Positions 1-9,709 are shown, counted from the stretch's first letter. The stretch is DNA of 9,709 nt from Candidatus Wukongarchaeum yapensis (GCA_016840425.1 JAEOSI010000069.1:1-9709), one strand, 5' to 3'. Translations and numbers: made by a program. Notes: generated by a model not told the origin, from the letters alone.

Positions 1-284
1 AGTATTACCTCTTGTTCACTCAAGATTCTATCTCTGAGGAGGGGATGGAGGGATTTGTAAGTAAGAATATCTACGTCTCTTCTTAGCAATTCCTCAAGTT
101 CAAGTTTTAAACCTACAAGGTCTAACAAACTCTTCCTTCCCTCAAACTCGACAAGTAAATCTATATCACTTTTTTCATCCGCTTCTCTTCTCACAATAGA
201 ACCAAACAAACTCGCCTTCTTTACCCCATGTTTTTGCAACACCTGTACGATTATATCTTTTATTTCTTCAATTTGAGAATTCAT
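1..284 (-). CDS. Minimal nucleotidyltransferase (MNT, HEPN/MNT antitoxin type); runs off the left edge just before its stop
   Basis: Not in the ORF track; translated by hand from ATG at 284: MNSQIEEIKDIIVQVLQKHGVKKASLFGSIVRREADEKSDIDLLVEFEGRKSLLDLVGLKLELEELLRRDVDILTYKSLHPLLRDRILSEQEVI... It has the Pol-beta-fold GS-x10-DxD motif (GSIVRREADEKSDID), a second VD motif and a size of about 95 aa. A GGGGGG RBS-like run lies 6 nt upstream. Confidence 0.9.
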   Translation of the reverse strand, partial: MNSQIEEIKDIIVQVLQKHGVKKASLFGSIVRREADEKSDIDLLVEFEGRKSLLDLVGLKLELEELLRRDVDILTYKSLHPLLRDRILSEQEVI

Positions 285-528: not shown

Positions 529-1491
529 TTAAGGGTCTATGATGCCGCCTTCTGCGATTTTGAAGGTGGTTTCTGATTCTGGTAGGCATGGGCTGTCGAA
601 TATTCTTGCTACTCTGAGTTCTCCTTTTCCTTTTCTTAGGTAGACGCGGGTTGTGGCTGCGTGGGCCATTACGTGTCCTCCTACGGCTATGGTTGGGTCT
701 CCGAAGAAGGCGTCTGGTCTGGCCATGACTTGGTTTGCAACGATTACTGCTGCGTTGTTTATTTCTGCGAATCGGAGTAGTTGGTGTAGGTGTTTGTTTA
801 GCATTTGTTGCCTGCTTGCAAGGCTCTCTCTTCCCACGTATTCGGCTCTGAAGTGGGAGGTTAGGGAGTCTATTACGAGGAGGCGGATGTTTTTTTCTTT
901 CGCCATTTTTGCCGCTTTATCAGCGAGGGCTATTTGATGGTCTGTGTTAAAGGCTCTTGCCACGTATATTCCTTTCATGATTTCTTGGGGGTCTTTTCCA
1001 ACTCTTTGGGCCATGGAGATAATTCTTTCAGGGCGAAAAGTTCCTTCAGAGTCTATGTAAACTGCTTTGGCTTCTATTCCTCCTTCTTCTTCGGGTAGTT
1101 GAGCGGTTACAGTGCACATATGGCATAGTTGTGTTTTTCCTGTGCGGAATTCGCCGAAAAATTCTATCATTGCACTTGTCTCTATGCCTCCTCCGAGGAT
1201 GTTGTCTATGTTTTTGCTTCCTGTTGCGATTTTTTTAGTGTTTTGTCTGTCTTTTAAAACTTCTTCTGCCGACTTGAATCCGAGGTCTAAGGATTTTCTA
1301 GCTGCTTGTATTATTTTTGCAGCAATAGTGTCGCCAAGCCCTGTTACTGCTACAACTTCTTGTGGTGTAGCAACAGCTACGGATTCAAGGTTTAGGTATC
1401 CTGCTTCTCGAAGTTTTTCAGCTGTTGCCGGTCCTACTCCCGGTAAACTTTCAAGATCTTCAGATTCAGACAAGAGTTTTTCCACCACCAA
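529..1491 (-). CDS. radA: DNA repair and recombination protein RadA (Rad51/RadA family recombinase)
   Basis: N-terminal HhH domain (LESLPGVGPATAEKLREAGY), FxxA polymerization motif (FKSA), Walker A GEFRTGKT, YIDSEGTFRPERI, Walker B LLVIDS, L2 region NQVMARPDAFFGDP, and YLRKGKG. No intein. Start is TTG at 1491 or an adjacent GTG (1488/1485). Confidence 0.97.
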   Translation of the reverse strand: MVVEKLLSESEDLESLPGVGPATAEKLREAGYLNLESVAVATPQEVVAVTGLGDTIAAKIIQAARKSLDLGFKSAEEVLKDRQNTKKIATGSKNIDNILGGGIETSAMIEFFGEFRTGKTQLCHMCTVTAQLPEEEGGIEAKAVYIDSEGTFRPERIISMAQRVGKDPQEIMKGIYVARAFNTDHQIALADKAAKMAKEKNIRLLVIDSLTSHFRAEYVGRESLASRQQMLNKHLHQLLRFAEINNAAVIVANQVMARPDAFFGDPTIAVGGHVMAHAATTRVYLRKGKGELRVARIFDSPCLPESETTFKIAEGGIIDP

Positions 1492-1513
1492 AATAAAAAA
1501 ATAACTCTTAATG

Positions 1514-1520
1514 TTTTATA
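1514..1520 (-). promoter_or_regulatory. Candidate TATA box (TATAAAA) for a leaderless radA transcript
   Basis: TATAAAA on the minus strand, preceded by a purine-rich BRE-like stretch (GGAAAAAAATAG), 23-26 nt before the TTG/GTG starts. No RBS is visible before radA. Confidence 0.3.
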
Positions 1521-1591
1521 CTATTTTTTTCCTTTATAAAAAAGGCTATAAAATGATAAAATGTTTTCTCGATTCTTTTCTTACTGTCATA

Positions 1592-1599
1592 TTTATATA
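1592..1599 (+). promoter_or_regulatory. Candidate TATA box (TTTATATA) in the radA/nuclease divergent region
   Basis: Matches the canonical archaeal TATA consensus, about 130 nt upstream of the nuclease ATG. It also reads as TATA-like on the minus strand, so its direction is uncertain. Confidence 0.3.
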
Positions 1600-1729
1600 A
1601 CTTTTGAGGAGAGAGAGGTCCTTGAAAGTGAACAGAAATACTCATTAGAAATAAAAATTAAGGTTTTTTTGTGATCAATAATTTTTAGTTTTAGTTTGCT
1701 TGTTTATTGTTGTTCGATGGGGTTTTTTT

Positions 1730-2617
1730 ATGGGAAAAATAGTGGTGGACCGGTTTAACGTTAAGGCTTCTTTGTATCTTCTCACTCATGCTCATACTGA
1801 TCACATGCGAGGGTTGAGAAAAGGATGGAGTAAGGGACCTATTCTTTGTAGTGAGGAGACGGGTAGGGTGATTCAGGCGCTTTATGGTGTTCCTAAAAGT
1901 TTGATACCTACTATAGCACCCGGGGAAGAGATTAAGGTTTTTGGGGCTGTGATAAAGGCTTATGATGCGAATCATTGTCCTGGGGCGCTTATGTTTAAGG
2001 TGGAACGGGAGGAGGAAGGGGATGATAAGGGTAAGGTGGAGGTTTATACGGGGGATTTTCGTTTAAACGATAGGATGAGGGGGATTTTACACGAGTTTGA
2101 AGGGGCAGATGTTTGTTACTTGGACATGACTTATAACAATCCTTGTTTTATGTTTCCTCCTCAATCCCATGCGATTCAGCAAGTTATAGAGGTTTTAGAA
2201 ACATGTGAAGGTAAAGATTCTTTTGTAGGTATTTATAATATTGGGAAAAACAAGGTAGTTAAAGCTGTCTCTAAACATTTCGGTGTCCCTGTTTATGTAC
2301 CTGAGAGAACTTATAGGGTATATCAAGCTTTAGATATGGGGGAGATTGTTACAAAGAATATGGAAGATACTTGTATTTCTGCTTATTCCCGTGGTTTTTT
2401 AGAGAAGCCGAAGGTTGATAGTCCCCTGTTTTACAAGATATCTATGGGTTATACGGTGATACCTACTGGGTGGGCTTGTATAATGAAGCCAAGAAATCGG
2501 AGGGGTAGGAGGATTGAGTATGTTGCCTATTCGGAGCATAATGATTATTATGAACTTCAAGAGTTTATAAAAACGATAAAACCGAAGAAGATTGTGAATT
2601 TTCACCGTGGAAAGTAG
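1730..2617 (+). CDS. Metallo-beta-lactamase/beta-CASP nuclease, SNM1/Pso2/Apollo/Artemis (DRMBL)-like; 295 aa
   Basis: Motifs VVDRF, LTHAHTDH (HxHxDH), DANHCPGA, YTGDFR, YLDMTY..P.F.FP.Q, GIYNIGK, IPTGW, AYSEH and FIKTIKPKKIV occur in the order known from SNM1-family nucleases. ATG at 1730 is preferred over the ORF-track TTG at 1700. The fold call is firm; the SNM1 subfamily call rests on remembered motifs. Confidence 0.85.
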   Translation: MGKIVVDRFNVKASLYLLTHAHTDHMRGLRKGWSKGPILCSEETGRVIQALYGVPKSLIPTIAPGEEIKVFGAVIKAYDANHCPGALMFKVEREEEGDDKGKVEVYTGDFRLNDRMRGILHEFEGADVCYLDMTYNNPCFMFPPQSHAIQQVIEVLETCEGKDSFVGIYNIGKNKVVKAVSKHFGVPVYVPERTYRVYQALDMGEIVTKNMEDTCISAYSRGFLEKPKVDSPLFYKISMGYTVIPTGWACIMKPRNRRGRRIEYVAYSEHNDYYELQEFIKTIKPKKIVNFHRGK

Positions 2618-2656: not shown

Positions 2657-3493
2657 TTATGCTGTCTTTGGTGTCATTTTTACTTTTTCTTCTTCTGTTG
2701 TTGTTATTGTTTTTTCTTCTTCTTCGTTGCTTTCTTTTAGCATGTAGTTTATGGCGAAGTACCAGAAAATTGTCATCCATAAAAGGAAGAGGAGGAACCC
2801 TAAGTAGTCGTGTACTCTCATCATTGTGTTGTATCCGTAGTAGTATCCTGTGAGGCTTATGATTGTTAGGCGGATCCAGTTTGTTGTTAACGTGCCTATT
2901 CCACCGATTAAGAAGCTTATTCCTACCCTTTTTTTAGAGGATGCGTGACGCCCTATGTAAAGAATCATTATGGCAAAGACTATGAGGAATATGGTGGTTG
3001 AATGCACCCCGCTACATCTTGCATCTATGTAGATCGCTGAGACTTTTGAGGGGTTTTCCAGGTAGATGATTCCCATTTGGTCACCGTCTGCTGTTTCGTA
3101 AAAGGCATAGTCCGCTTCATAGTTTAAAAGGCGTAGAATATGTATTGTGGCGATTACTGCAAGTTTAACCATCTCATCCGCCATTTTTGTGTGGAGTATT
3201 ACTTCATCAAAGTGGGTTATTAAAAAGATCCAGAAAACGAAGATACCCGCAATTAAGGGCACAATCAACTCTTCCAAGGTTTTAAATTTTCTTTTTTCAT
3301 GCAGAAGCAAAAAAGCGCCAATACCTAAAAAAAGAAGACCTAAAGGCGGTAAAAAATCGTTATGGGTATGCTCATAAAGAAGGTATAAAAAGAAGGCTAT
3401 TGACCAAGACGTTATCCCTAGAATAACGCCTTTAAAACGCCTAAAAAAGGATTTCAACCCAAAAAATGAACCTTTTTCACTTGTCAATACCAC
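2657..3493 (-). CDS. Exosortase/archaeosortase family intramembrane transpeptidase
   Basis: Multiple TM helices with the family's Cys/Arg/His triad in the expected context: IDARCSGVHS, TNWIRL, RVHDYLG. GTG start with a GGTG RBS 7 nt upstream. Acidic low-complexity C-terminal tail. Confidence 0.9.
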   Translation of the reverse strand: MVLTSEKGSFFGLKSFFRRFKGVILGITSWSIAFFLYLLYEHTHNDFLPPLGLLFLGIGAFLLLHEKRKFKTLEELIVPLIAGIFVFWIFLITHFDEVILHTKMADEMVKLAVIATIHILRLLNYEADYAFYETADGDQMGIIYLENPSKVSAIYIDARCSGVHSTTIFLIVFAIMILYIGRHASSKKRVGISFLIGGIGTLTTNWIRLTIISLTGYYYGYNTMMRVHDYLGFLLFLLWMTIFWYFAINYMLKESNEEEEKTITTTEEEKVKMTPKTA

Positions 3494-3639
3494 TTAAAAG
3501 CACCTAAAAGAAATAAAATCGCAAAACTCCATTATCTAACTATTTTAAGCGTTTAAAATCTCTGCTTTCTCCATTTATAACACTATTATTTTTTGAACTT
3601 TAACGTTTCCTTTCCTTTTTTTATCGTTGTTGTTTTTTG

Positions 3640-5028
3640 TTAATCGTTCGGTTTTCCAACGGCCATATATATTACGTCCTTAAACTCTGAGACACGCTTT
3701 GATTCAAAAACTTGCCTACCGTCAACTATCACAAGAGGTTTTTTACCCGCCTGATTTACAAGTTTTTCGAGGTCTAACTCCTTATATTGTGCGTGATCCG
3801 TAGCAATTATTATACAATCAGCACCATCAACCGCTTTCATGATGTCTGGCTCAAATCTAAAAGGGAACATTCTTCCCTCATCAGCATCCCAAAGCACATC
3901 ATTAACTGTCACTAAAACCTCCCTCTTCTCCAGCTCTTTTACCAAGTCGAAGGTGGGCGAAAATCTACTCTCTTTTACCCCGCCTCTATAAGACAAGCCT
4001 AAAATCACCACTTTCGTCCCTTTAATCTCTTTCCCTATTTTCCCTAACCCTTTCTCAACTAGGTTTATTACGTGGAGAGGTGCTTCTTCATTAACCTTTC
4101 GAGCAGTCTTTGTAACCTCAACCTTTACCCTCATCTCCTCAGCTATCTTTATCACAAAATGGGGATAAACCGGTATACAATGCCCTCCAACCCCCACACC
4201 TGGATCGTGAAGATGGCAAAAAGGCTGGGAATTAGCAGCTTTTTTGACCTCAAAGTAATCCACGTCAAACCTTTCACATAAACGTGCAAGCTCATTGGCT
4301 AGTGCAATATTAGCATCCCTATAAATACCCTCAAAAACCTTAGTGGTCTCAGCAGCTTCAACACTGCTCATCTTAATAACTCCTCGCTCGCAAAAAATGG
4401 CATAAAACGCCCCTGCAACCTCCGTGCTCTGCTCATTTATCCCCCCCACAATCTTTGGATATCTTTTTGTCACATCCTCAATAACTCGCCCAACATAAGT
4501 ACGTTCAGGACTATAAACCAAGCCAAAATCTCGCCCGGCCTTAAGATTAGAACCTTTCTCAATGATGGAACGAACAAATCCGTTTGTGGTGCCTGGAGGA
4601 ACAGTACTCTCGATTATAACCACGCTACCCTTCTTCAATCCTCTCGCGATCGCCTCAGAAACAGTTAAAAGAGCGTTAAGATCAGGATCCTTACTCTCCT
4701 CATCCACCACCACAGGAACAATAACCACGATAAAATCAGCAAGTTGAACAGCCTTAACCAGATCCGTAGTAGCCCAAAGCCTTCCCTCCTTGACAAAACG
4801 CTCAATTCCCTCCCTCACTCCAGGCTCCGCTAAAAGCTCAGTACGCCCTTCATTAATCATCGAAACAACACGCTCATCAACATCAACACCAACAACTTTC
4901 GCCCCCGCAGAAGCAAAAATAACCGCTAAAGGTTGCCCCATCTTCCCCAAACCATAAACAGCAACAGTAATCCTCCCCTCACTAACAAGTCTAGGAATAT
5001 CTAAAGAAGATGCATAAAAAACGCTCAT
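3640..5028 (-). CDS. Nucleotide-sugar 6-dehydrogenase (UDP-N-acetyl-D-mannosamine/glucosamine dehydrogenase, WecC/WbpA-like)
   Basis: Rossmann motif VYGLGKMG, then ESTVPPGTT, SPER, KVFEGIYRDANIALANELA, catalytic PGVGVGGHCIP and LGLSYRGGVKESRFSP. ATG at 5028 (GTG at 5031 is the alternative). The exact sugar cannot be determined from motifs. Confidence 0.92.
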   Translation of the reverse strand: MSVFYASSLDIPRLVSEGRITVAVYGLGKMGQPLAVIFASAGAKVVGVDVDERVVSMINEGRTELLAEPGVREGIERFVKEGRLWATTDLVKAVQLADFIVVIVPVVVDEESKDPDLNALLTVSEAIARGLKKGSVVIIESTVPPGTTNGFVRSIIEKGSNLKAGRDFGLVYSPERTYVGRVIEDVTKRYPKIVGGINEQSTEVAGAFYAIFCERGVIKMSSVEAAETTKVFEGIYRDANIALANELARLCERFDVDYFEVKKAANSQPFCHLHDPGVGVGGHCIPVYPHFVIKIAEEMRVKVEVTKTARKVNEEAPLHVINLVEKGLGKIGKEIKGTKVVILGLSYRGGVKESRFSPTFDLVKELEKREVLVTVNDVLWDADEGRMFPFRFEPDIMKAVDGADCIIIATDHAQYKELDLEKLVNQAGKKPLVIVDGRQVFESKRVSEFKDVIYMAVGKPND

Positions 5029-5127
5029 CACTAAAAAACTCTCCTCATAAAAACAAGGGCTTGAATAATAGTTCTCAAACTAACTAAAAAACTCTTATAA
5101 GATTTATTATTTTTTAGGTAGTTTCAT

Positions 5128-5168
5128 AAAACAAAAATTAAAAAACTGAAAAACAAAAAAAGAAAAAA
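5128..5168 (-). terminator. Long U-rich tract downstream of the membrane-protein pair
   Basis: About 40 nt of nearly continuous T runs on the minus strand, starting 30 nt after the stop at 5198. It suggests the pair is transcriptionally separated from the dehydrogenase. Confidence 0.4.
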
Positions 5169-5197
5169 TTATTCTCATAGAGGGAGGACAAAACTCT

Positions 5198-5524
5198 TTA
5201 AAATATGGTCCTATCTTCGACTTTTTTCCTCCAGAATCTGCCCCATCCTAAAAGGACAAAAGAAGCGACGAGAGCCCCGACTCCGATAAAGATTCCTAAA
5301 AAGACAGAAGCATCTTCAACATCGCCCTCTGAGAAATATATGTTTAAAATTCCATATAGGAGACCGATGAAACCTACTACTACTCCAAGAACCGAAATTA
5401 TTATGAAACGTGTAGCATACCATTCGATTTGGGAGTAAACTTGGTCTATTATTTCCTCCCAAGTCGGTATAGGCTTTCTAACCTTTTTCGGTTTCGTAGG
5501 AATAACTACTTCTTTTTCAGACAT
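5198..5524 (-). CDS. Hypothetical 2-TM membrane protein A (108 aa), paralog of the adjacent gene
   Basis: ATG with a purine-rich RBS (GAAGGGAAGG), two hydrophobic Gly-rich segments, a WGRFW motif and a basic tail. Aligns without gaps to protein B. Confidence 0.8.
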   Translation of the reverse strand: MSEKEVVIPTKPKKVRKPIPTWEEIIDQVYSQIEWYATRFIIISVLGVVVGFIGLLYGILNIYFSEGDVEDASVFLGIFIGVGALVASFVLLGWGRFWRKKVEDRTIF

Positions 5525-5541
5525 AACCTTCCCTTCTTTCT

Positions 5542-5826
5542 TTATTTTCCATATTTTTTCTTCAATCTTTTTCCTTCACTTCGCATCCAGTAGAGACCCC
5601 AAAACACTAAGAATACGCCTATGAGAATGAAAGCTACACCAACGAAAAACCCACCGGCTATAGAAAAGGAGGTCGCTTCCTTACCATAAATAGCGAAGGC
5701 AAGAATTGAATAGACAATGCCTATAGCTCCTACAGCTACTGCCAAAACACTAAAGACAATGTATTTTGCTGCTATTGCGATTATATCAGCACTAGTTTCC
5801 AAATCTATATCTTTTGATTCAGACAT
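5542..5826 (-). CDS. Hypothetical 2-TM membrane protein B (94 aa), paralog of the adjacent gene
   Basis: GGAGG RBS at 5833-5837, 6 nt before ATG 5826, so the start is moved from the track's GTG 5853. Two TM segments, a WGLYW motif and a basic tail; 17-nt gap to gene A. Confidence 0.8.
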   Translation of the reverse strand: MSESKDIDLETSADIIAIAAKYIVFSVLAVAVGAIGIVYSILAFAIYGKEATSFSIAGGFFVGVAFILIGVFLVFWGLYWMRSEGKRLKKKYGK

Positions 5827-5938
5827 CTTAATCCTCCACAATTCACGGACCAAATCTTATAAATTTTACTTATAACACTTTAAGGGTTTAACAACATTAG
5901 TCGAATTTAAAATTTTTCACCATTTTGAAAAAATTTTG

Positions 5939-6910
5939 TTAGAAAGGGTTGTTAAGCTCATCAAGTTCAAAATCTGACCGGGCTACATAAGATATATATC
6001 CTTTATTTGAAGCCTTCGTCAAATAATCGTCTATTCTATGCTTATTCTCTCCAAAGTACCCTGTACCATCATCAACATAATCCACAGAGAAAACAACCTT
6101 ATCCGCACCACTTATATCATCCAAATATTGGATTCTTTCCTCTACATCACTAGAGGGCAGAGGAGTTATACCATCATACCATATCGACTCAACTCCTATC
6201 CCCGATATTGTTTCCAAATACGAACCATCCGCATCGTAATCCAATATTCTCTCTCCATTTTGAGGTATTATGTAAAAGCCCGCTTTACCTTTTTCATCCC
6301 TGCAATAGGAGGCAATCTCTACGAGAAAATCTATCATTCTCCCTGCAGTTTCTTTCTCAGAAGGATGTATATCTTCGCCATTATCAGGGTCACTCCAATA
6401 TTCAAATCCGTCTATGATGTCAAGGTAAACGCCTAAGAAGCCTTGATTTATGACCTTGTCTAAGTATTCTTTTACGATCGTTTTCCATCTCTCTTCCCAG
6501 TACTTTACTTTGTAATTACCTACCCATTCAGTGTTCTCTTTTCCTAACCAACTTGGTGGATTTTTGTTCCATTCATCTTGCCAATAAAAACGATAATCTT
6601 CAGCTTCTCCGATGCTGATATATGCAATAGGTATTATGCCGTTTTCTTCTATATTATTGATCTCTTCAAGCGTGTATTTGTTTTCCTCTGTCCCGTCAGC
6701 GGAGTAGTCCATAACTATTAAGTCGAAATCTGAACTAGCAATCAGGTCTGGATCAGCGTCTTGAAGCTGGTATACCCAGCTTTCAACATCGACAAGCGGT
6801 TGATCTTGTATATCGTAGCTATAATCATTACCGTTTTTATAGTGAGTGTAGGCCATGAAAGCGGATAAAGTAGCTACCATTATCACTGCTAATGTTATTA
6901 TTTTCTTCAT
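5939..6910 (-). CDS. Secreted GH114-family glycoside hydrolase (MJ1477/TM1410-type, putative endo-alpha-1,4-galactosaminidase)
   Basis: N-terminal signal/anchor (MKKIITLAVIMVATLSAF), WVYQLQ, AYISIGEAEDYRFYW, ENTEWVGNYKVKYW, GVYLDIIDGFEY, IIPQNG and GIGVES. Very acidic. GGAGG RBS upstream. Confidence 0.88.
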   Translation of the reverse strand: MKKIITLAVIMVATLSAFMAYTHYKNGNDYSYDIQDQPLVDVESWVYQLQDADPDLIASSDFDLIVMDYSADGTEENKYTLEEINNIEENGIIPIAYISIGEAEDYRFYWQDEWNKNPPSWLGKENTEWVGNYKVKYWEERWKTIVKEYLDKVINQGFLGVYLDIIDGFEYWSDPDNGEDIHPSEKETAGRMIDFLVEIASYCRDEKGKAGFYIIPQNGERILDYDADGSYLETISGIGVESIWYDGITPLPSSDVEERIQYLDDISGADKVVFSVDYVDDGTGYFGENKHRIDDYLTKASNKGYISYVARSDFELDELNNPF

Positions 6911-7003
6911 TTTTAGGACTGCCCTCCAAAAACCTCCTTAATTTAAAATTATTAGAGAAAATATAAAAATTACTGGGAGAGGAAGGGGTTGTTTAAAGAT
7001 TTT

Positions 7004-8188
7004 TTAGTTTTTGAGGGCTAGGGTTTTTTGGTAGAGGTTTAGGGTTTTTTTTGCTATGTTTTCCCAGCTGAACTCTTTTCTTGCTTTTTCTTTTGCTTTT
7101 TTTGCTATTTTTTTTGATAAGAGTTTGTCTTCAAGGAGAATTATTATGCCTTCTGCTAAAGCTTTTGGGTTTCTTGGCTCTACTAAGTAACTTGTGGTAA
7201 GGTGTTCTGTTATCTCTCTTATACCGTTTATATTTGTGGCGATGACTGGTTTTTCCATGGCCATTGCTTCCATTACGAGGACTGAGGTTGCTTCCACGAT
7301 ACTTGGCACTGCTACTATGTCTGCTGCAGCCATGTAGTTTGGGATTTTTTCGTGGGGTAAGCTTCCCAAAAAAAGGATGTCTTCGCCTATTTTGAGCCCT
7401 AAATCTTTTGCTTTTTTTACGAGTTTTTGTTTTTCCGGTCCTTCTCCTATGATTACGAACCTTACCTTGTGTCGTTTTAAAACTATTGGAGCGCTCTCTA
7501 CCAGATATTTTACGCCACATTTTGGGACAAGACGCCTTGCAGTCATTATTATTGGAAGATCCCTTGGAATGGCGTCTGTTAGGGGTTTATTGGGAAAAAA
7601 TCGGTTTAGGTTTACTCCGTTGAATATGACGTGAACTTTTTCTTTTCCTACGCCCCATTCTACAACTTTTTTTGCGAAAGAGGATTCTGTGTGGATTTGA
7701 GCATCTACAAGCTTTCCCACGAGGGTTGCTATTATTCTTTCTGCTGCTTTGTATACTCTTGCTTTTCTTTTACTTCTTAGAAGATGCCATACTTCGTAGT
7801 AGGAACCATGGATCGTGTTTATGCTAACTGCATGTTTTAGTTTTCCTACGAGGTAAGCTGTTAGACCTGCTGTGTATATATGTCCATGAATTATGTCAAA
7901 TCTTTCTTGGAAACCGAGAATTTTTTGAACAGCTAGAGGTGGAAAGAGTAGCTGTCTTGTAAAGGTTAGAACATCCGGATTCCAAGTTCTTTTCATCAAT
8001 CCAAATTTTTCTGTCCGAATTACGCGTATTCCATCAATCCAAACTTCTTTTTTTGTGTGAGGAGTGTTTCCTGTAAGAAAAGTCACACTTTGACCCATTC
8101 TTACCAAAGCTTTTGAAAGCTCAACAATGTGAACCTCTACACCTCCTGTAAAAAAAGCATCATCCAAGGGACCTAATTCGTAAGCCAT
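7004..8188 (-). CDS. Glycosyltransferase family 4 (GT-B, retaining)
   Basis: GGVEVHIVEL, IIHGH, FNGVNL, ARRLVPKCG, and the Ex7E motif in VPSIVEATSVLVMEAMAMEKPVIAT; FSWENIA near the C-terminus. The true start may be a few codons upstream (CTG at 8200; see findings). Confidence 0.93.
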   Translation of the reverse strand: MAYELGPLDDAFFTGGVEVHIVELSKALVRMGQSVTFLTGNTPHTKKEVWIDGIRVIRTEKFGLMKRTWNPDVLTFTRQLLFPPLAVQKILGFQERFDIIHGHIYTAGLTAYLVGKLKHAVSINTIHGSYYEVWHLLRSKRKARVYKAAERIIATLVGKLVDAQIHTESSFAKKVVEWGVGKEKVHVIFNGVNLNRFFPNKPLTDAIPRDLPIIMTARRLVPKCGVKYLVESAPIVLKRHKVRFVIIGEGPEKQKLVKKAKDLGLKIGEDILFLGSLPHEKIPNYMAAADIVAVPSIVEATSVLVMEAMAMEKPVIATNINGIREITEHLTTSYLVEPRNPKALAEGIIILLEDKLLSKKIAKKAKEKARKEFSWENIAKKTLNLYQKTLALKN

Positions 8189-8312
8189 GAGGATGTTCAG
8201 CGTGCATTTAACCTCCTAAAAAGCCAAAGACGAAGATTTTAAATCTTTTTTTGGGATCTTTTAAAGTATACAAGTAAAAGAAAGATAGTGTTGTTTTGCT
8301 TCTTAGTGTTAG

Positions 8313-8320
8313 TTTTATAA
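8313..8320 (+). promoter_or_regulatory. Candidate TATA box (TTTTATAA) for a leaderless methyltransferase transcript
   Basis: Ends 25 nt before the GTG at 8346, the spacing expected for a leaderless archaeal mRNA. Confidence 0.4.
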
Positions 8321-8345
8321 CTAAATAAAAGTATGGTGAGAAGAA

Positions 8346-9194
8346 GTGAGGGGTGAAAAAAACAGGATTTACCTCATGGATTGTTTAGAAGGTATGAAGA
8401 CGCTCTTAGACCCAGAAGAGGTTGATGTTATAGTTACCTCTCCTCCATACAACATAGGGGTGGAGTACAACAAGTATGATGATACCATTCCAAGGGAGAA
8501 TTATTTAAACTGGATGGAGGAAGTTGCCAAAGAATGTAAAAGGGTTTTGAAACGTGAAGGTTCTTTCTTCTTAAATATAGGACACAAACCTACAGATCTT
8601 TGGGTTCCTTGGGAGGTTGCTTTTACACTAAGGAAATATTTTACGCTTCAGAACGTAATTACTTGGGTTAAGTCTATAGCTATCCAGAAAGAGGATGTTG
8701 GGAAATATCCGAATATTAAGGGAGATATAACTGTTGGTCATTACAAGCCTATCGGCGGGGAGCGTTTCCTAAATGACTGCTTTGAATATATATTCCACTT
8801 TACGAAGTCTGGTGATGTTAAGCTTAACAGGTTAGCTATAGGCGTTCCATATCAAGATAAATCCAATATCGGAAGATGGAAGTCTGCAACCAAAGACTTA
8901 AGATGCAGGGGGAACACATGGTTCATTCCCTATGAAACGATAAAGTATAAGCACAAAGAGAGACCGCATCCCTCCACGTTTCCACCAAAGTTACCCATGA
9001 TGTGCATAGAGCTACATGGATTAAATAAGACAGATCTTGTTTTAGACCCGTTCATAGGTATAGGGAACACAGCCATAGCATGTATGAAACTTGGTGTGAA
9101 TTACATAGGTTTCGAGATAGATGAAATATACGTTAAGATAGCTGAACAAAGGATTAGAGGAAAACTCCTATATTATGCGAGCGAAACTCTCTAA
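8346..9194 (+). CDS. Site-specific DNA methyltransferase, beta class, probably N4-cytosine (N6-adenine not excluded); no adjacent restriction enzyme
   Basis: Catalytic motif IV VTSPPYN near the N-terminus, HPSTFP, and SAM-binding motif [12 protein letters not shown] plus GFEID near the C-terminus, which is the beta-class motif order. Confidence 0.92.
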
Positions 9195-9246
9195 ATATGT
9201 TCTCTCTATATGAATTGTTAGCTTGGTTTTCTTAGGGGTCTTTTAG

Positions 9247-9709
9247 TTGGTTTTAAAGGGTGTTTCTATTGTTATTCCTGCTTGTAATGAAGTTTCTACG
9301 GTTAGGGATGTTGTGAACGATGTTGTAAATGTGGTTTCTCGTATTTCTGGCATCTCTTTTTTTGAGGTTATTCTGGTTGATGATGGGTCTACGGATGGTA
9401 CTTTTGAAGTTGTCAAGGATCTTGGTGTAGTTGTCTTAAGGAATAAGGTTAATAGGGGTAAGGGTTATTCTTTAAGAAGGGGCTTTAAGAGGGCTAGGGG
9501 GAAGGTAATTGTCACCCTCGATGCTGATGGATCTCATTTCCCTGAAGATTTGCCATTGGTTCTTACTCCCCTATTAAAGGGAGAGGTTGATATGGTTATA
9601 GGGTCAAGGTTTGGGCATAAACAAGCTTTTTTCACCCGTGCCCTTAATATTGCTGGGAACTCCTTGTTTAACATCTTTTTTTACATTCTTACGGGTAGGA
9701 GGTTTTCTG
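9247..9709 (+). CDS. Glycosyltransferase family 2 (DPM/polyprenol-phosphate glycosyltransferase-like); runs off the right edge
   Basis: Not in the ORF track; translated by hand from TTG at 9247, directly after an in-frame TAG: (M)VLKGVSIVIPACNE...EVILVDDGSTDGT...NRGKGYSLRRGF...VTLDADGSHFPEDL...DMVIGSRF. It has the DDGSTD and DxD motifs; GGGG RBS-like run upstream. Confidence 0.93.
   Translation, partial: MVLKGVSIVIPACNEVSTVRDVVNDVVNVVSRISGISFFEVILVDDGSTDGTFEVVKDLGVVVLRNKVNRGKGYSLRRGFKRARGKVIVTLDADGSHFPEDLPLVLTPLLKGEVDMVIGSRFGHKQAFFTRALNIAGNSLFNIFFYILTGRRFS

What the first reader, a model, noticed from the sequence alone, without database searches (positions are those of the whole stretch)
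1730..2617. Minimal SNM1/Apollo/Artemis-like nuclease with an RNA-type histidine at beta-CASP motif C
Seen: DANHCPGALMF (1964-1996), YTGDFR, YLDMTYNNPCFMFPPQ, GIYNIGKNKV, IPTGW and AYSEH (YSEH at 2528-2539). These follow SNM1A as I recall it (DANHCPGAVM, HTGDFR, YLDTTY.SPEYTFPSQ, GTYSIGKEKV, PTGW, PYSEH), not aCPSF/RNase J (AGHxxG, SxH). However, KPKKIVNFH puts His (2603-2605) where SNM1/Artemis have Val and RNA-acting CPSF73/RNase J have His. The protein is only the 295-aa catalytic core, with no accessory domains. Inference: an evolutionary intermediate between RNA- and DNA-acting beta-CASP enzymes, possibly dual-specificity and a possible eukaryotic-signature protein. The retained YxxGK suggests 5'-phosphate-dependent 5'-3' exonuclease activity.
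Basis: partly seen in the sequence, partly recalled or inferred. Interest (0 to 1): 0.7.

Follow-up and report, generated by a model that had tools for sequence, protein, structure and literature searches.

The report
Minimal SNM1-type nuclease in Asgard archaeon
An Asgard archaeon carries a stripped-down relative of the human DNA-repair nucleases SNM1A/Apollo.

Summary
ORF 1730-2617 (+) encodes a 295-aa MBL/beta-CASP protein, and every motif sits at the stated coordinates. Its closest solved relatives are human SNM1A (E 1.8e-29; predicted-model TM 0.84) and Apollo, well ahead of CPSF73. His292 (2603-2605) occupies motif C, the position of CPSF73 His418 and of Val in eukaryotic SNM1.

The protein belongs to a small prokaryotic "mini-SNM1" family. 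It is found in Asgard archaea (a congeneric MAG is labelled Hodarchaeota) and in Planctomycetota, Spirochaetota and other bacteria.

In that family motif C is not conserved:
- 18 of 63 representatives stop exactly at that codon.
- 9 of 63 have His; others have Asn, Arg, Glu, Cys and so on.
- On the tree, His needs 12 state changes.
- The nearest relatives of this protein have His, Cys or a stop.

So the His is best read as a scattered ancestral remnant, not a specificity switch.

Eukaryotic SNM1 forms one clade (100/99). It sits next to bacterial members, not next to this protein, but an Asgard+eukaryote grouping is not rejected (AU p 0.08-0.11).

The most likely function is a 5'-phosphate-dependent 5'-3' DNA exonuclease. 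The scan has already flagged 303-aa versions of this family in other archaeal genomes.

The parts
1730..2617 (+). Gene for the 295-aa mini-SNM1 (MBL + beta-CASP) nuclease, stop codon TAG included
   Evidence: Pfam Lactamase_B_2 32.8 bits and DRMBL 27.6 bits. PDB SNM1A 1.8e-29. AF2 model pLDDT 94.9.
1787..1804 (+). MBL motif 2, HAHTDH (His20, His22, Asp24, His25), metal ligands
   Evidence: Invariant columns in alignments A1 and A2. Coordinates.
1964..1996 (+). DANHCPGALMF with motif 3 His82
   Evidence: His82 and Gly85 are invariant; Ala80, Asn81 and Cys83 are nearly invariant. Coordinates.
2045..2062 (+). YTGDFR with motif 4 Asp109
   Evidence: Asp109 is invariant. Coordinates.
2117..2134 (+). 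YLDMTY with beta-CASP motif A Asp132
   Evidence: Asp132 is invariant in A2. Coordinates.
2231..2257 (+). IYNIGKNKV. Tyr169 and Lys173 correspond to Apollo Tyr182 and Lys186 of the 5'-phosphate pocket.
   Evidence: Alignment to Apollo. Pocket residues defined in PMC8450094. Lys173 is invariant and Tyr169 at least 90% conserved in the family.
2459..2473 (+). IPTGW. Thr246 corresponds to Apollo Thr257. The PTGW wording matches SNM1A.
2528..2539 (+). YSEH: Ser268, Glu269 and motif B His270, corresponding to Apollo Ser274, Asp275 and His276
   Evidence: Ser268 and His270 are invariant. Alignment.
2603..2605 (+). His292 (CAC) at the motif C position, three residues before the C-terminus
   Evidence: Lies at motif B His +22. 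Aligned with CPSF73 chain residue 418 and with the eukaryotic Val. Kept in all four Hodarchaeota-type orthologues. Mean pLDDT of the last five residues is about 61.
1492..1729 (.). AT-rich 238-bp spacer shared with divergently transcribed radA; presumed promoters of both genes
   Evidence: Sequence read. The same arrangement occurs in the congeneric genome (L002). Promoters were not tested.
529..1491 (-). radA (HhH + Rad51/RadA recombinase), head-to-head neighbour; context only
   Evidence: Pfam Rad51 317.9 bits and HHH_5. The linkage is seen only in the same genus. It is absent at the G014 and P0005 loci.

Best explanation
The gene encodes a stand-alone, minimal SNM1/Apollo-type metallo-beta-lactamase/beta-CASP nuclease of an Asgard archaeon. 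It belongs to a small prokaryotic family (Asgard archaea and several bacterial phyla) that is the closest known prokaryotic relative of the eukaryotic SNM1A/Apollo/Artemis catalytic core.

Shown here:
- All metal-binding and catalytic motifs (MBL 1-4, beta-CASP A and B) are intact.
- The residues that form the 5'-phosphate pocket of Apollo and SNM1A are conserved.
- The predicted fold superposes best on SNM1A.

Inferred: the enzyme binds a 5'-phosphorylated DNA end in that pocket and removes nucleotides 5'-3' by metal-activated hydrolysis. This would trim damaged, blocked or cross-linked ends ahead of recombinational repair.

His292 at motif C is most likely a retained ancestral ligand of the second metal site. 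It may give this orthologue a fuller two-metal centre. It is dispensable in the family and is not a determinant of RNA versus DNA choice.
For: SNM1-type identity:
- PDB matches by sequence: SNM1A 1.8e-29, Apollo 1e-22, Artemis 3e-10, CPSF73 4e-4.
- Family profile against PDB: Apollo 9e-69, SNM1A 3e-64, Artemis 2e-38, best CPSF-type 3e-17.
- The AF2 model (pLDDT 94.9) matches SNM1A at TMq 0.84, Apollo 0.79, Artemis 0.75 and CPSF73 0.65.
- Pfam DRMBL hits 49 of 49 family members; RMMBL hits 12 of 49.
- The family plus eukaryotic SNM1 forms a 100/100 clade against ligase-associated-type exonucleases.

Exonuclease mechanism:
- Tyr169, Lys173, Thr246, Ser268, Glu269 and His270 align with Apollo Tyr182, Lys186, Thr257, Ser274, Asp275 and His276.
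- Those Apollo residues bind the 5'-phosphate, which Apollo requires for 5'-3' exonuclease activity; mutating pocket residues impaired nuclease activity (PMC8450094).
- These positions are invariant or at least 90% conserved in the family.

Motif C is dispensable:
- At motif B His +22, 18 of 63 prokaryotic representatives end, 9 have His, 8 Asn, 5 Arg, 4 Glu and 3 Cys.
- The stop codon sits exactly at that codon, and no His follows it.
- His needs 12 changes on the tree and truncation needs 9.

The gene is native to the lineage:
- radA, the nuclease and the exosortase gene are syntenic in the congeneric MAG labelled Candidatus Hodarchaeota.
- All 3 genomes of the GTDB class carry the gene.
Against: No biochemical data exist for any member of the prokaryotic family, so substrate (DNA or RNA), polarity and 5'-phosphate dependence are all inferred from human enzymes at 25-29% identity.

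His292 is kept in all four orthologues of 86-98% identity while the residues after it vary. Some lineage-specific role for it is therefore possible.

The protein gives a marginal Pfam RMMBL hit (22.2 bits against a cut-off of 21.6).

The link to recombination is weak. The radA adjacency is conserved only within the genus, and bacterial members have no conserved neighbour.

The model is not confident about the last five residues (pLDDT about 61), so the geometry of His292 relative to the metal site is unknown.
Confidence: 0.62

Rival explanations
1. The protein is an evolutionary intermediate between RNA-acting (CPSF73/RNase J) and DNA-acting (SNM1) beta-CASP enzymes. The motif C His would give it dual RNA/DNA activity, and it would be ancestral to eukaryotic SNM1.
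For: - His292 aligns with CPSF73 chain residue 418 and with the eukaryotic Val.
- The literature rule is His for RNA enzymes and Val for DNA enzymes at motif C (PMC3095777).
- There is a marginal RMMBL hit.
- In the outgroup-rooted tree the two Asgard clades branch first within the SNM1-like clade, with weak support of 82/13 and 85/95.
- Grouping Asgard with eukaryotes is not rejected: AU p 0.114 and 0.082.
Against: - His is scattered, with 12 changes for 14 His rows.
- Within this protein's own clade the position is His, Cys or a stop.
- His-bearing Spirochaetia members with C-terminal extensions sit next to the eukaryotic clade (97/92), so they are closer to it than this protein is.
- Everything except this one residue scores as SNM1-type.
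- The motif C His is a zinc ligand (PMC3095777); that such a ligand does not contact the sugar is my inference, so it does not by itself predict RNA use.
- Ligase-associated-type exonucleases, the outgroup, also vary at this position: His in 5 of 15.
Confidence: 0.12
2. On origin: the Asgard copies, this one included, are part of a patchy, horizontally exchanged prokaryotic gene family. Eukaryotic SNM1 derives from, or was donated to, bacterial members and not the Asgard lineage. On this view the gene is not an Asgard-derived eukaryotic-signature protein.
For: - In the careful tree the eukaryotes (100/99) are sister to Coatesbacteria and Spirochaetia sequences (97/92). That group then joins a Riflebacteria/Spirochaetota/Phycisphaerae clade (99/82).
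- The distribution in Asgard is patchy: strong hits (listed E-values 9e-34 or better) in 4 of 30 sampled families.
- The bacterial contigs carry ordinary bacterial genes, such as a hybrid histidine kinase and a formyltransferase.
- The bacterial sisters share a C-terminal extension past motif C with eukaryotes.
Against: - The AU tests do not reject Asgard+eukaryote groupings (p 0.114 and 0.082).
- This is a single-gene tree of 308 columns, with compositional outliers and an unsettled bootstrap.
- The direction of any transfer cannot be read from this tree.
Confidence: 0.45
3. It is a member of the ligase-associated DNA damage response exonuclease family, or an aCPSF2-like RNA nuclease, that only superficially resembles SNM1.
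For: NCBIfam TIGR04122 (Xnuc_lig_assoc) is the best NCBIfam hit, at 73.7 bits. That family often has His at motif C.
Against: - 73.7 bits is far below the 325-bit cut-off.
- The protein separates from ligase-associated-type sequences by a 100/100 branch.
- There is no ligase gene beside it.
- There is no Pfam Beta-Casp (PF10996) hit, whereas an aCPSF2-like protein in a related genome hits Beta-Casp at 63.8 bits and RMMBL at 38.8 bits.
Confidence: 0.04

Closest known systems
Human SNM1A (DCLRE1A) and SNM1B/Apollo (DCLRE1B) catalytic cores; yeast Pso2
   Same: - Same MBL + beta-CASP fold (TMq 0.84 and 0.79).
- Same motifs 1-4, A and B.
- Same DANHCPG, TGDFR, PTGW and YSEH wording as SNM1A.
- Conserved 5'-phosphate pocket residues (PMC8450094).
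- Pfam DRMBL hit.
   Different: - 25-29% identity in the Foldseek structural alignments.
- About 35-45 residues shorter than the crystallised human cores of roughly 330-340 aa (target lengths).
- It ends three residues after motif C.
- No accessory regions. That the human proteins carry PCNA-, ubiquitin- and TRF2-binding parts is from my own knowledge.
- His instead of Val at motif C.
- It lies outside the eukaryotic clade (100/99).
Prokaryotic mini-SNM1 family: unnamed DRMBL proteins of about 280-310 aa in Asgard archaea, Planctomycetota, Spirochaetota, KSB1, Eisenbacteria, Riflebacteria and Coatesbacteria
   Same: This is the family the protein belongs to: 33-43% identity over the full length (A2 rows outside its own genus), the same length and the same invariant residues.
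   Different: Most members lack the motif C His. Many stop exactly at that codon. The 303-aa Asgard versions lie upstream of an HhH-MutS-type ATPase gene, whereas here the neighbour is radA.
Ligase-associated DNA damage response exonuclease (NCBIfam TIGR04122) and its Asgard look-alikes
   Same: Small stand-alone beta-CASP nucleases with the same motif spacing (motif C at motif B +22), often with His in a THG context. They are the nearest outgroup.
   Different: They are separated by a 100/100 branch. This protein scores 73.7 bits against a 325-bit cut-off. They lack PTGW and YSEH, and they carry 40-78 residues after motif B.
CPSF73 / aCPSF1 / aCPSF2 / RNase J (RNA-acting beta-CASP enzymes)
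   Same: MBL + beta-CASP architecture. His at motif C, where it is a zinc ligand (PMC3095777).
   Different: Much weaker similarity: E 4e-4 on 32 residues and TMq 0.65. There is no Pfam Beta-Casp domain hit. Those enzymes have much larger beta-CASP inserts and extra domains.

Membership tests
SNM1/PSO2/Artemis (DRMBL) nucleases, broad sense | MBL motifs 1-4 (Asp; HxHxDH; His; Asp) | tested here: met
   Asp7, His20, His22, Asp24, His25, His82 and Asp109 are invariant columns.
SNM1/PSO2/Artemis (DRMBL) nucleases, broad sense | beta-CASP motif A (acidic residue) and motif B (His) | tested here: met
   Asp132 and His270 are invariant in A2.
SNM1/PSO2/Artemis (DRMBL) nucleases, broad sense | Val at motif C (Callebaut rule, as cited in PMC3095777) | tested here: not met
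   His292 occupies motif B +22. The eukaryotic clade has Val in 66 of 69 sequences.
SNM1/PSO2/Artemis (DRMBL) nucleases, broad sense | Pfam DRMBL (PF07522) above the gathering score | tested here: met
   27.6 bits against a cut-off of 22. 49 of 49 family members hit it. RMMBL also passes marginally on the same stretch (22.2 against 21.6).
SNM1/PSO2/Artemis (DRMBL) nucleases, broad sense | Closest solved structures by sequence and by fold are SNM1A/Apollo/Artemis | tested here: met
SNM1A/Apollo exonuclease subtype | 5'-phosphate binding pocket (Apollo Tyr182, Lys186, Thr257, Ser274, Asp275) | tested here: met
   Tyr169, Lys173, Thr246, Ser268 and Glu269 align with these residues. The pocket is defined in PMC8450094. 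This is sequence-level evidence only.
SNM1A/Apollo exonuclease subtype | 5'-phosphate-dependent 5'-3' exonuclease activity on DNA | not testable with these tools
   Needs an enzyme assay.
Eukaryotic SNM1 clade (orthology with SNM1A, B or C) | Branches inside the eukaryotic clade | tested here: not met
   The eukaryotic clade (100/99) excludes it. It sits in an Asgard clade with 98/90 support.
Ligase-associated DNA damage response exonuclease (TIGR04122) | Score above the equivalog cut-off, and a neighbouring ligase/Lhr operon | tested here: not met
   73.7 bits against 325. The neighbours are radA and an exosortase-type gene.
aCPSF/RNase J RNA-acting beta-CASP | Pfam Beta-Casp (PF10996) plus a clear RMMBL hit | tested here: not met
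   No Beta-Casp hit and only a marginal RMMBL hit. A true aCPSF2-like protein scores 63.8 and 38.8 bits on these models.

The most novel reading that the evidence does not exclude
Eukaryotic SNM1A/Apollo/Artemis/Pso2 nucleases descend vertically from an Asgard mini-SNM1, and the Hodarchaeota-type protein preserves the ancestral state. That state would be a bare catalytic core with a complete two-metal site, including the motif C His, and possibly still able to cut both RNA and DNA. This would make SNM1 a new Asgard-derived eukaryotic-signature repair protein and give a living model of the RNA-to-DNA transition in beta-CASP enzymes.
Probability: 0.1. Interest if true: 0.75.

Novelty: new variant of a known kind. 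Interest (0 to 1): 0.45.

Why it matters
SNM1-family nucleases are usually discussed as eukaryotic enzymes of cross-link repair, telomere processing and V(D)J recombination. That framing is from my own knowledge.

This gene and its relatives show a compact prokaryotic version of the same enzyme. It is present in Asgard archaea and several bacterial phyla. Full-text searches of the held library found no paper that describes it.

The family offers three things:
- Small, probably easy-to-express models of the SNM1 catalytic core.
- A natural experiment on motif C. His, Cys, Asn, Val or an outright stop all occur there, which suggests the textbook "His = RNA, Val = DNA" rule reflects loss of a dispensable metal ligand and not a specificity code.
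- A testable question about where eukaryotes got their SNM1 genes.

None of this makes the particular His in this protein special.

Tried and rejected
- **Conserved partner genes.** radA is adjacent only in the same genus. The G014 locus has UPF0047 and an aldo-keto reductase. The P0005 locus has an ELP3-like gene. Bacterial loci share no neighbour. The HhH-MutS-type ATPase sits directly downstream in the 303-aa Asgard clade. In this genome it lies on another contig, unlinked.
- **Read-through of the stop at motif C in truncated members.** No His or conserved sequence follows the stop. The "stops inside" flagged are just the normal stop codons.
- **Geometry of His292.** The tools return no model coordinates, so its distance from the metal site could not be measured. 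The tail has low confidence.
- **Literature.** I searched for Asgard, archaeal or prokaryotic SNM1/DRMBL proteins. Nothing specific turned up; one review only lists generic MBL-fold proteins in Asgard.
- **Phylogeny.** The quick tree gave one Asgard clade inside the prokaryotes. The careful tree split it into two basal clades. I treat neither arrangement as settled.
- **Protein-protein prediction.** No job was sent, because I make no binding claim.

Full report
**What is there**

The window is a whole 9.7-kb contig (G000:C41). Positions 1730-2617 on the + strand hold an open 295-aa frame ending in TAG. The longer TTG-initiated frame from 1700 is unlikely. Orthologues begin MGNIVVDRF, and the congeneric locus has GTG at the codon corresponding to the ATG at 1730.

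**Which family**

- Pfam gives Lactamase_B_2 (32.8 bits), DRMBL (27.6; cut-off 22) and a marginal RMMBL hit on the same C-terminal stretch (22.2; cut-off 21.6).
- The best NCBIfam hit is the ligase-associated exonuclease model, at 73.7 bits against a 325-bit cut-off.
- Against solved structures, the sequence matches human SNM1A at 1.8e-29 over residues 14-289, Apollo at 1e-22 and Artemis at 3e-10. CPSF73 matches only at 4e-4, on residues 261-292.
- A profile of 49 family members gives Apollo 9e-69, SNM1A 3e-64, Artemis 2e-38 and the best CPSF-type chain 3e-17.
- An AlphaFold2 model built on that alignment is confident (pLDDT 94.9, pTM 0.91) except for the last five residues, which average about 61.
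- Foldseek ranks SNM1A (TMq 0.84), Apollo (0.79), Artemis (0.75) and then CPSF73 (0.65).

The "SNM1-like, not aCPSF/RNase J-like" part of the finding therefore holds.

**The histidine**

The CPSF73 match pairs query 261-292 with chain 387-418. This puts His292 opposite residue 418, if the chain numbering is native. That residue 418 is the motif C zinc ligand is from my own knowledge.

Motif C lies exactly 22 residues after the motif B His, without gaps, in this protein, in the eukaryotic clade and in ligase-associated-type exonucleases. Eukaryotic sequences have Val there in 66 of 69 cases. PMC3095777 restates the Callebaut rule (His in RNA enzymes, Val in DNA enzymes) and shows the motif C His as a zinc ligand.

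**Whose genome**

- The neighbour at 529-1491 (-) is a RadA/Rad51 recombinase with an HhH domain.
- The congeneric genome G001 carries the same radA-nuclease-exosortase arrangement. Its contig is JBHLKN010000063.1, "Candidatus Hodarchaeota archaeon DZ1B.339".
- The order-mate G014 is labelled Candidatus Heimdallarchaeota.
- The window is therefore from an Asgard archaeon. These names are the submitters' labels. The GTDB class holds only three genomes, and all three carry the gene.

**The family**

- An exhaustive search of 1.84 billion representatives found 60 hits at E 1e-30 or better. About 45 are clusters of 280-310-aa proteins; they are followed without a break by long eukaryotic proteins.
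- Sampled members of the eukaryotic group are named SNM1A-like, SNM1-like or DNA ligase 6, or come from protists.
- Named prokaryotic members come from Planctomycetota, Spirochaetota, KSB1, Eisenbacteria, Riflebacteria and Coatesbacteria, as well as Asgard archaea.
- Within 301 sampled genomes of the phylum, strong hits (listed E-values 9e-34 or better) occur in four of 30 families. One genus has them in 20 of 21 genomes; NCBI calls its members Heimdallarchaeota or Promethearchaeota archaeon.
- The weaker hits in other Asgard families are ligase-associated-type exonucleases.
- The earlier scan notes show that the 303-aa Asgard version had already been flagged in several other genomes.

**Motif C across the family**

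This is the result that decides the interpretation. At motif B +22 the 63 prokaryotic representatives show the following:

| State at motif C | Count of 63 |
|---|---|
| Protein ends here (stop codon) | 18 |
| His | 9 |
| Asn | 8 |
| Arg | 5 |
| Glu | 4 |
| Cys, Leu, Val | 3 each |
| Other residues | 10 |

- In the truncated forms the stop codon occupies exactly that codon, and nothing conserved follows it.
- His-bearing members mostly keep the ancestral-looking "xHG" context (PIHG, KIHG, LHGK).
- Within this protein's own clade, P0005 has His, P0006 and P0012 have Cys, and L003 and P0007 stop.
- On the careful tree, His needs 12 changes for 14 His rows and truncation needs 9 changes for 18 rows.
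- The outgroup also varies, with His in 5 of 15.

The simplest reading is an ancestral metal-ligand His that has repeatedly decayed in a lineage that no longer needs it. Eukaryotes fixed Val; this archaeon happens to retain His. The four orthologues at 86-98% identity all keep His while the residues after it vary. A modest local role, such as a fuller second metal site, is therefore possible but unproven.

**Phylogeny**

I built a careful IQ-TREE analysis (LG+C20+F+G4 PMSF, 111 rows, 308 columns), rooted on ligase-associated-type sequences.

- The SNM1-like ingroup has 100/100 support and the eukaryotic clade 100/99.
- Eukaryotes are sister to Coatesbacteria and Spirochaetia sequences (97/92). 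That group then joins a Riflebacteria/Spirochaetota/Phycisphaerae clade (99/82).
- The Asgard sequences form two clades. One is the 303-aa group with its relatives (97/95). The other is this protein with L003, P0005 and P0006 (98/90). Both branch near the base with weak support.
- The bootstrap had not settled, and several rows have deviant composition. P0107 was left out as a long branch. Near-duplicates at 75% identity or more were dropped, and the eukaryotes were thinned to 34 rows.
- AU tests do not reject holding this protein's clade with eukaryotes (p 0.114) or all Asgard with eukaryotes (p 0.082).

The gene is thus a close prokaryotic relative of eukaryotic SNM1, but vertical Asgard ancestry is neither shown nor excluded. 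The best tree favours a bacterial connection. The bacterial sisters of eukaryotes also carry a 10-17-residue extension beyond motif C and include His-bearing members. If anything, they look more "intermediate" than this protein does. Their contigs carry ordinary bacterial genes.

**Likely mechanism**

The Apollo structure with bound nucleotides defines a 5'-phosphate pocket (Tyr182, Lys186, Thr257, Ser258, Ser274, Asp275). Apollo strictly requires a 5'-phosphate for 5'-3' exonuclease activity, and substitutions in the pocket impaired nuclease activity (PMC8450094). In the alignment these residues correspond to Tyr169, Lys173, Thr246, Gly247, Ser268 and Glu269. The PTGW and YSEH wording is that of SNM1A, and these positions are invariant or nearly so in the family.

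I therefore infer a 5'-phosphate-dependent 5'-3' DNA exonuclease working by the usual MBL metal-activated hydrolysis. The conservation is shown here. The activity, the substrate and any repair role are inferred.

**Context**

The head-to-head radA is suggestive but is conserved only within the genus. In the 303-aa Asgard clade the nuclease gene is followed by a 731-aa protein with N-terminal HhH motifs and a MutS domain V ATPase. This genome has that gene (35% identity) on another contig. Both contexts point loosely toward recombination or branched-DNA processing, not RNA metabolism.

**Verdict**

The "SNM1-like minimal core" reading is supported. The "RNA/DNA intermediate because of the His" reading is not supported. 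Eukaryotic-signature status remains open. This is a new variant of a known kind of enzyme. Its moderate interest lies in the prokaryotic family as a whole, not in this residue.

Noticed in passing
L021:4534-7723 (G258), also L004, L005/L044 and the other loci of genus g32: In the 303-aa Asgard clade the mini-SNM1 gene is followed about 80 nt downstream, on the same strand, by a 731-aa protein with N-terminal HhH motifs and a MutS domain V ATPase. That protein is distantly MutS2/KamC-like and shows no mismatch-binding domain. It looks like a conserved two-gene unit. Earlier scan notes saw the same arrangement in other genomes.
   Followed up: partly
G000:C92:3806-5956 (-), locus L023:1483-3696: This genome encodes the HhH-MutS-type ATPase (737 aa, 35% identity to the g32 protein). 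It is unlinked to the nuclease and lies next to a SAM hydroxide adenosyltransferase gene and an RNA polymerase subunit D gene.
   Followed up: partly
Family-wide (P0009, P0013, P0021, L003, L006-L020, L026-L028 and others): Eighteen of 63 family representatives end exactly 21 residues after the motif B His, so the stop codon occupies the motif C codon. All three stop codons are used, and this needs at least 9 independent changes on the tree.
   Followed up: yes
P0005, P0006, P0012 C-termini; L051, L052, L059 C-termini: Close relatives of this protein carry a 20-25-residue tail ending in Q[AS]T[LF]. Several ligase-associated-type Asgard exonucleases end in PIP-box-like peptides, for example QLELSDFL in L052. 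The window's protein has no such tail.
   Followed up: no
L046:2346-2864 and the matching ORF in L039: In Spirochaetia the mini-SNM1 gene is immediately preceded by an ankyrin-repeat protein gene, with start and stop overlapping. Ankyrin repeats are a eukaryote-like domain, and these are the bacterial lineages that branch next to eukaryotic SNM1.
   Followed up: no
P0074 (1141 aa, metagenomic): A long protein with two SNM1-like stretches within its first 627 residues (summed score 403.6 bits against the family profile). It may be a tandem duplication. Its origin is unknown.
   Followed up: no
window 2657-9709: The rest of the contig is a surface-glycan locus: an exosortase/archaeosortase-type protein, a UDP-glucose/GDP-mannose dehydrogenase, GH114, GT4 and GT2. 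It also holds an N4/N6 DNA methyltransferase (8346-9194) with no nuclease partner in view, and two small paralogous membrane proteins (5198-5853).
   Followed up: no
window 3-284 (-): A partial Pol-beta-type nucleotidyltransferase ORF runs off the contig end. Its type suggests the MNT half of an MNT/HEPN pair.
   Followed up: no
L021:9222-10604: A canonical aCPSF2-like beta-CASP RNase gene (Beta-Casp 63.8 bits, RMMBL 38.8 bits) lies about 3.8 kb from the mini-SNM1 gene in G258. It served as an internal contrast for the Pfam scores.
   Followed up: partly
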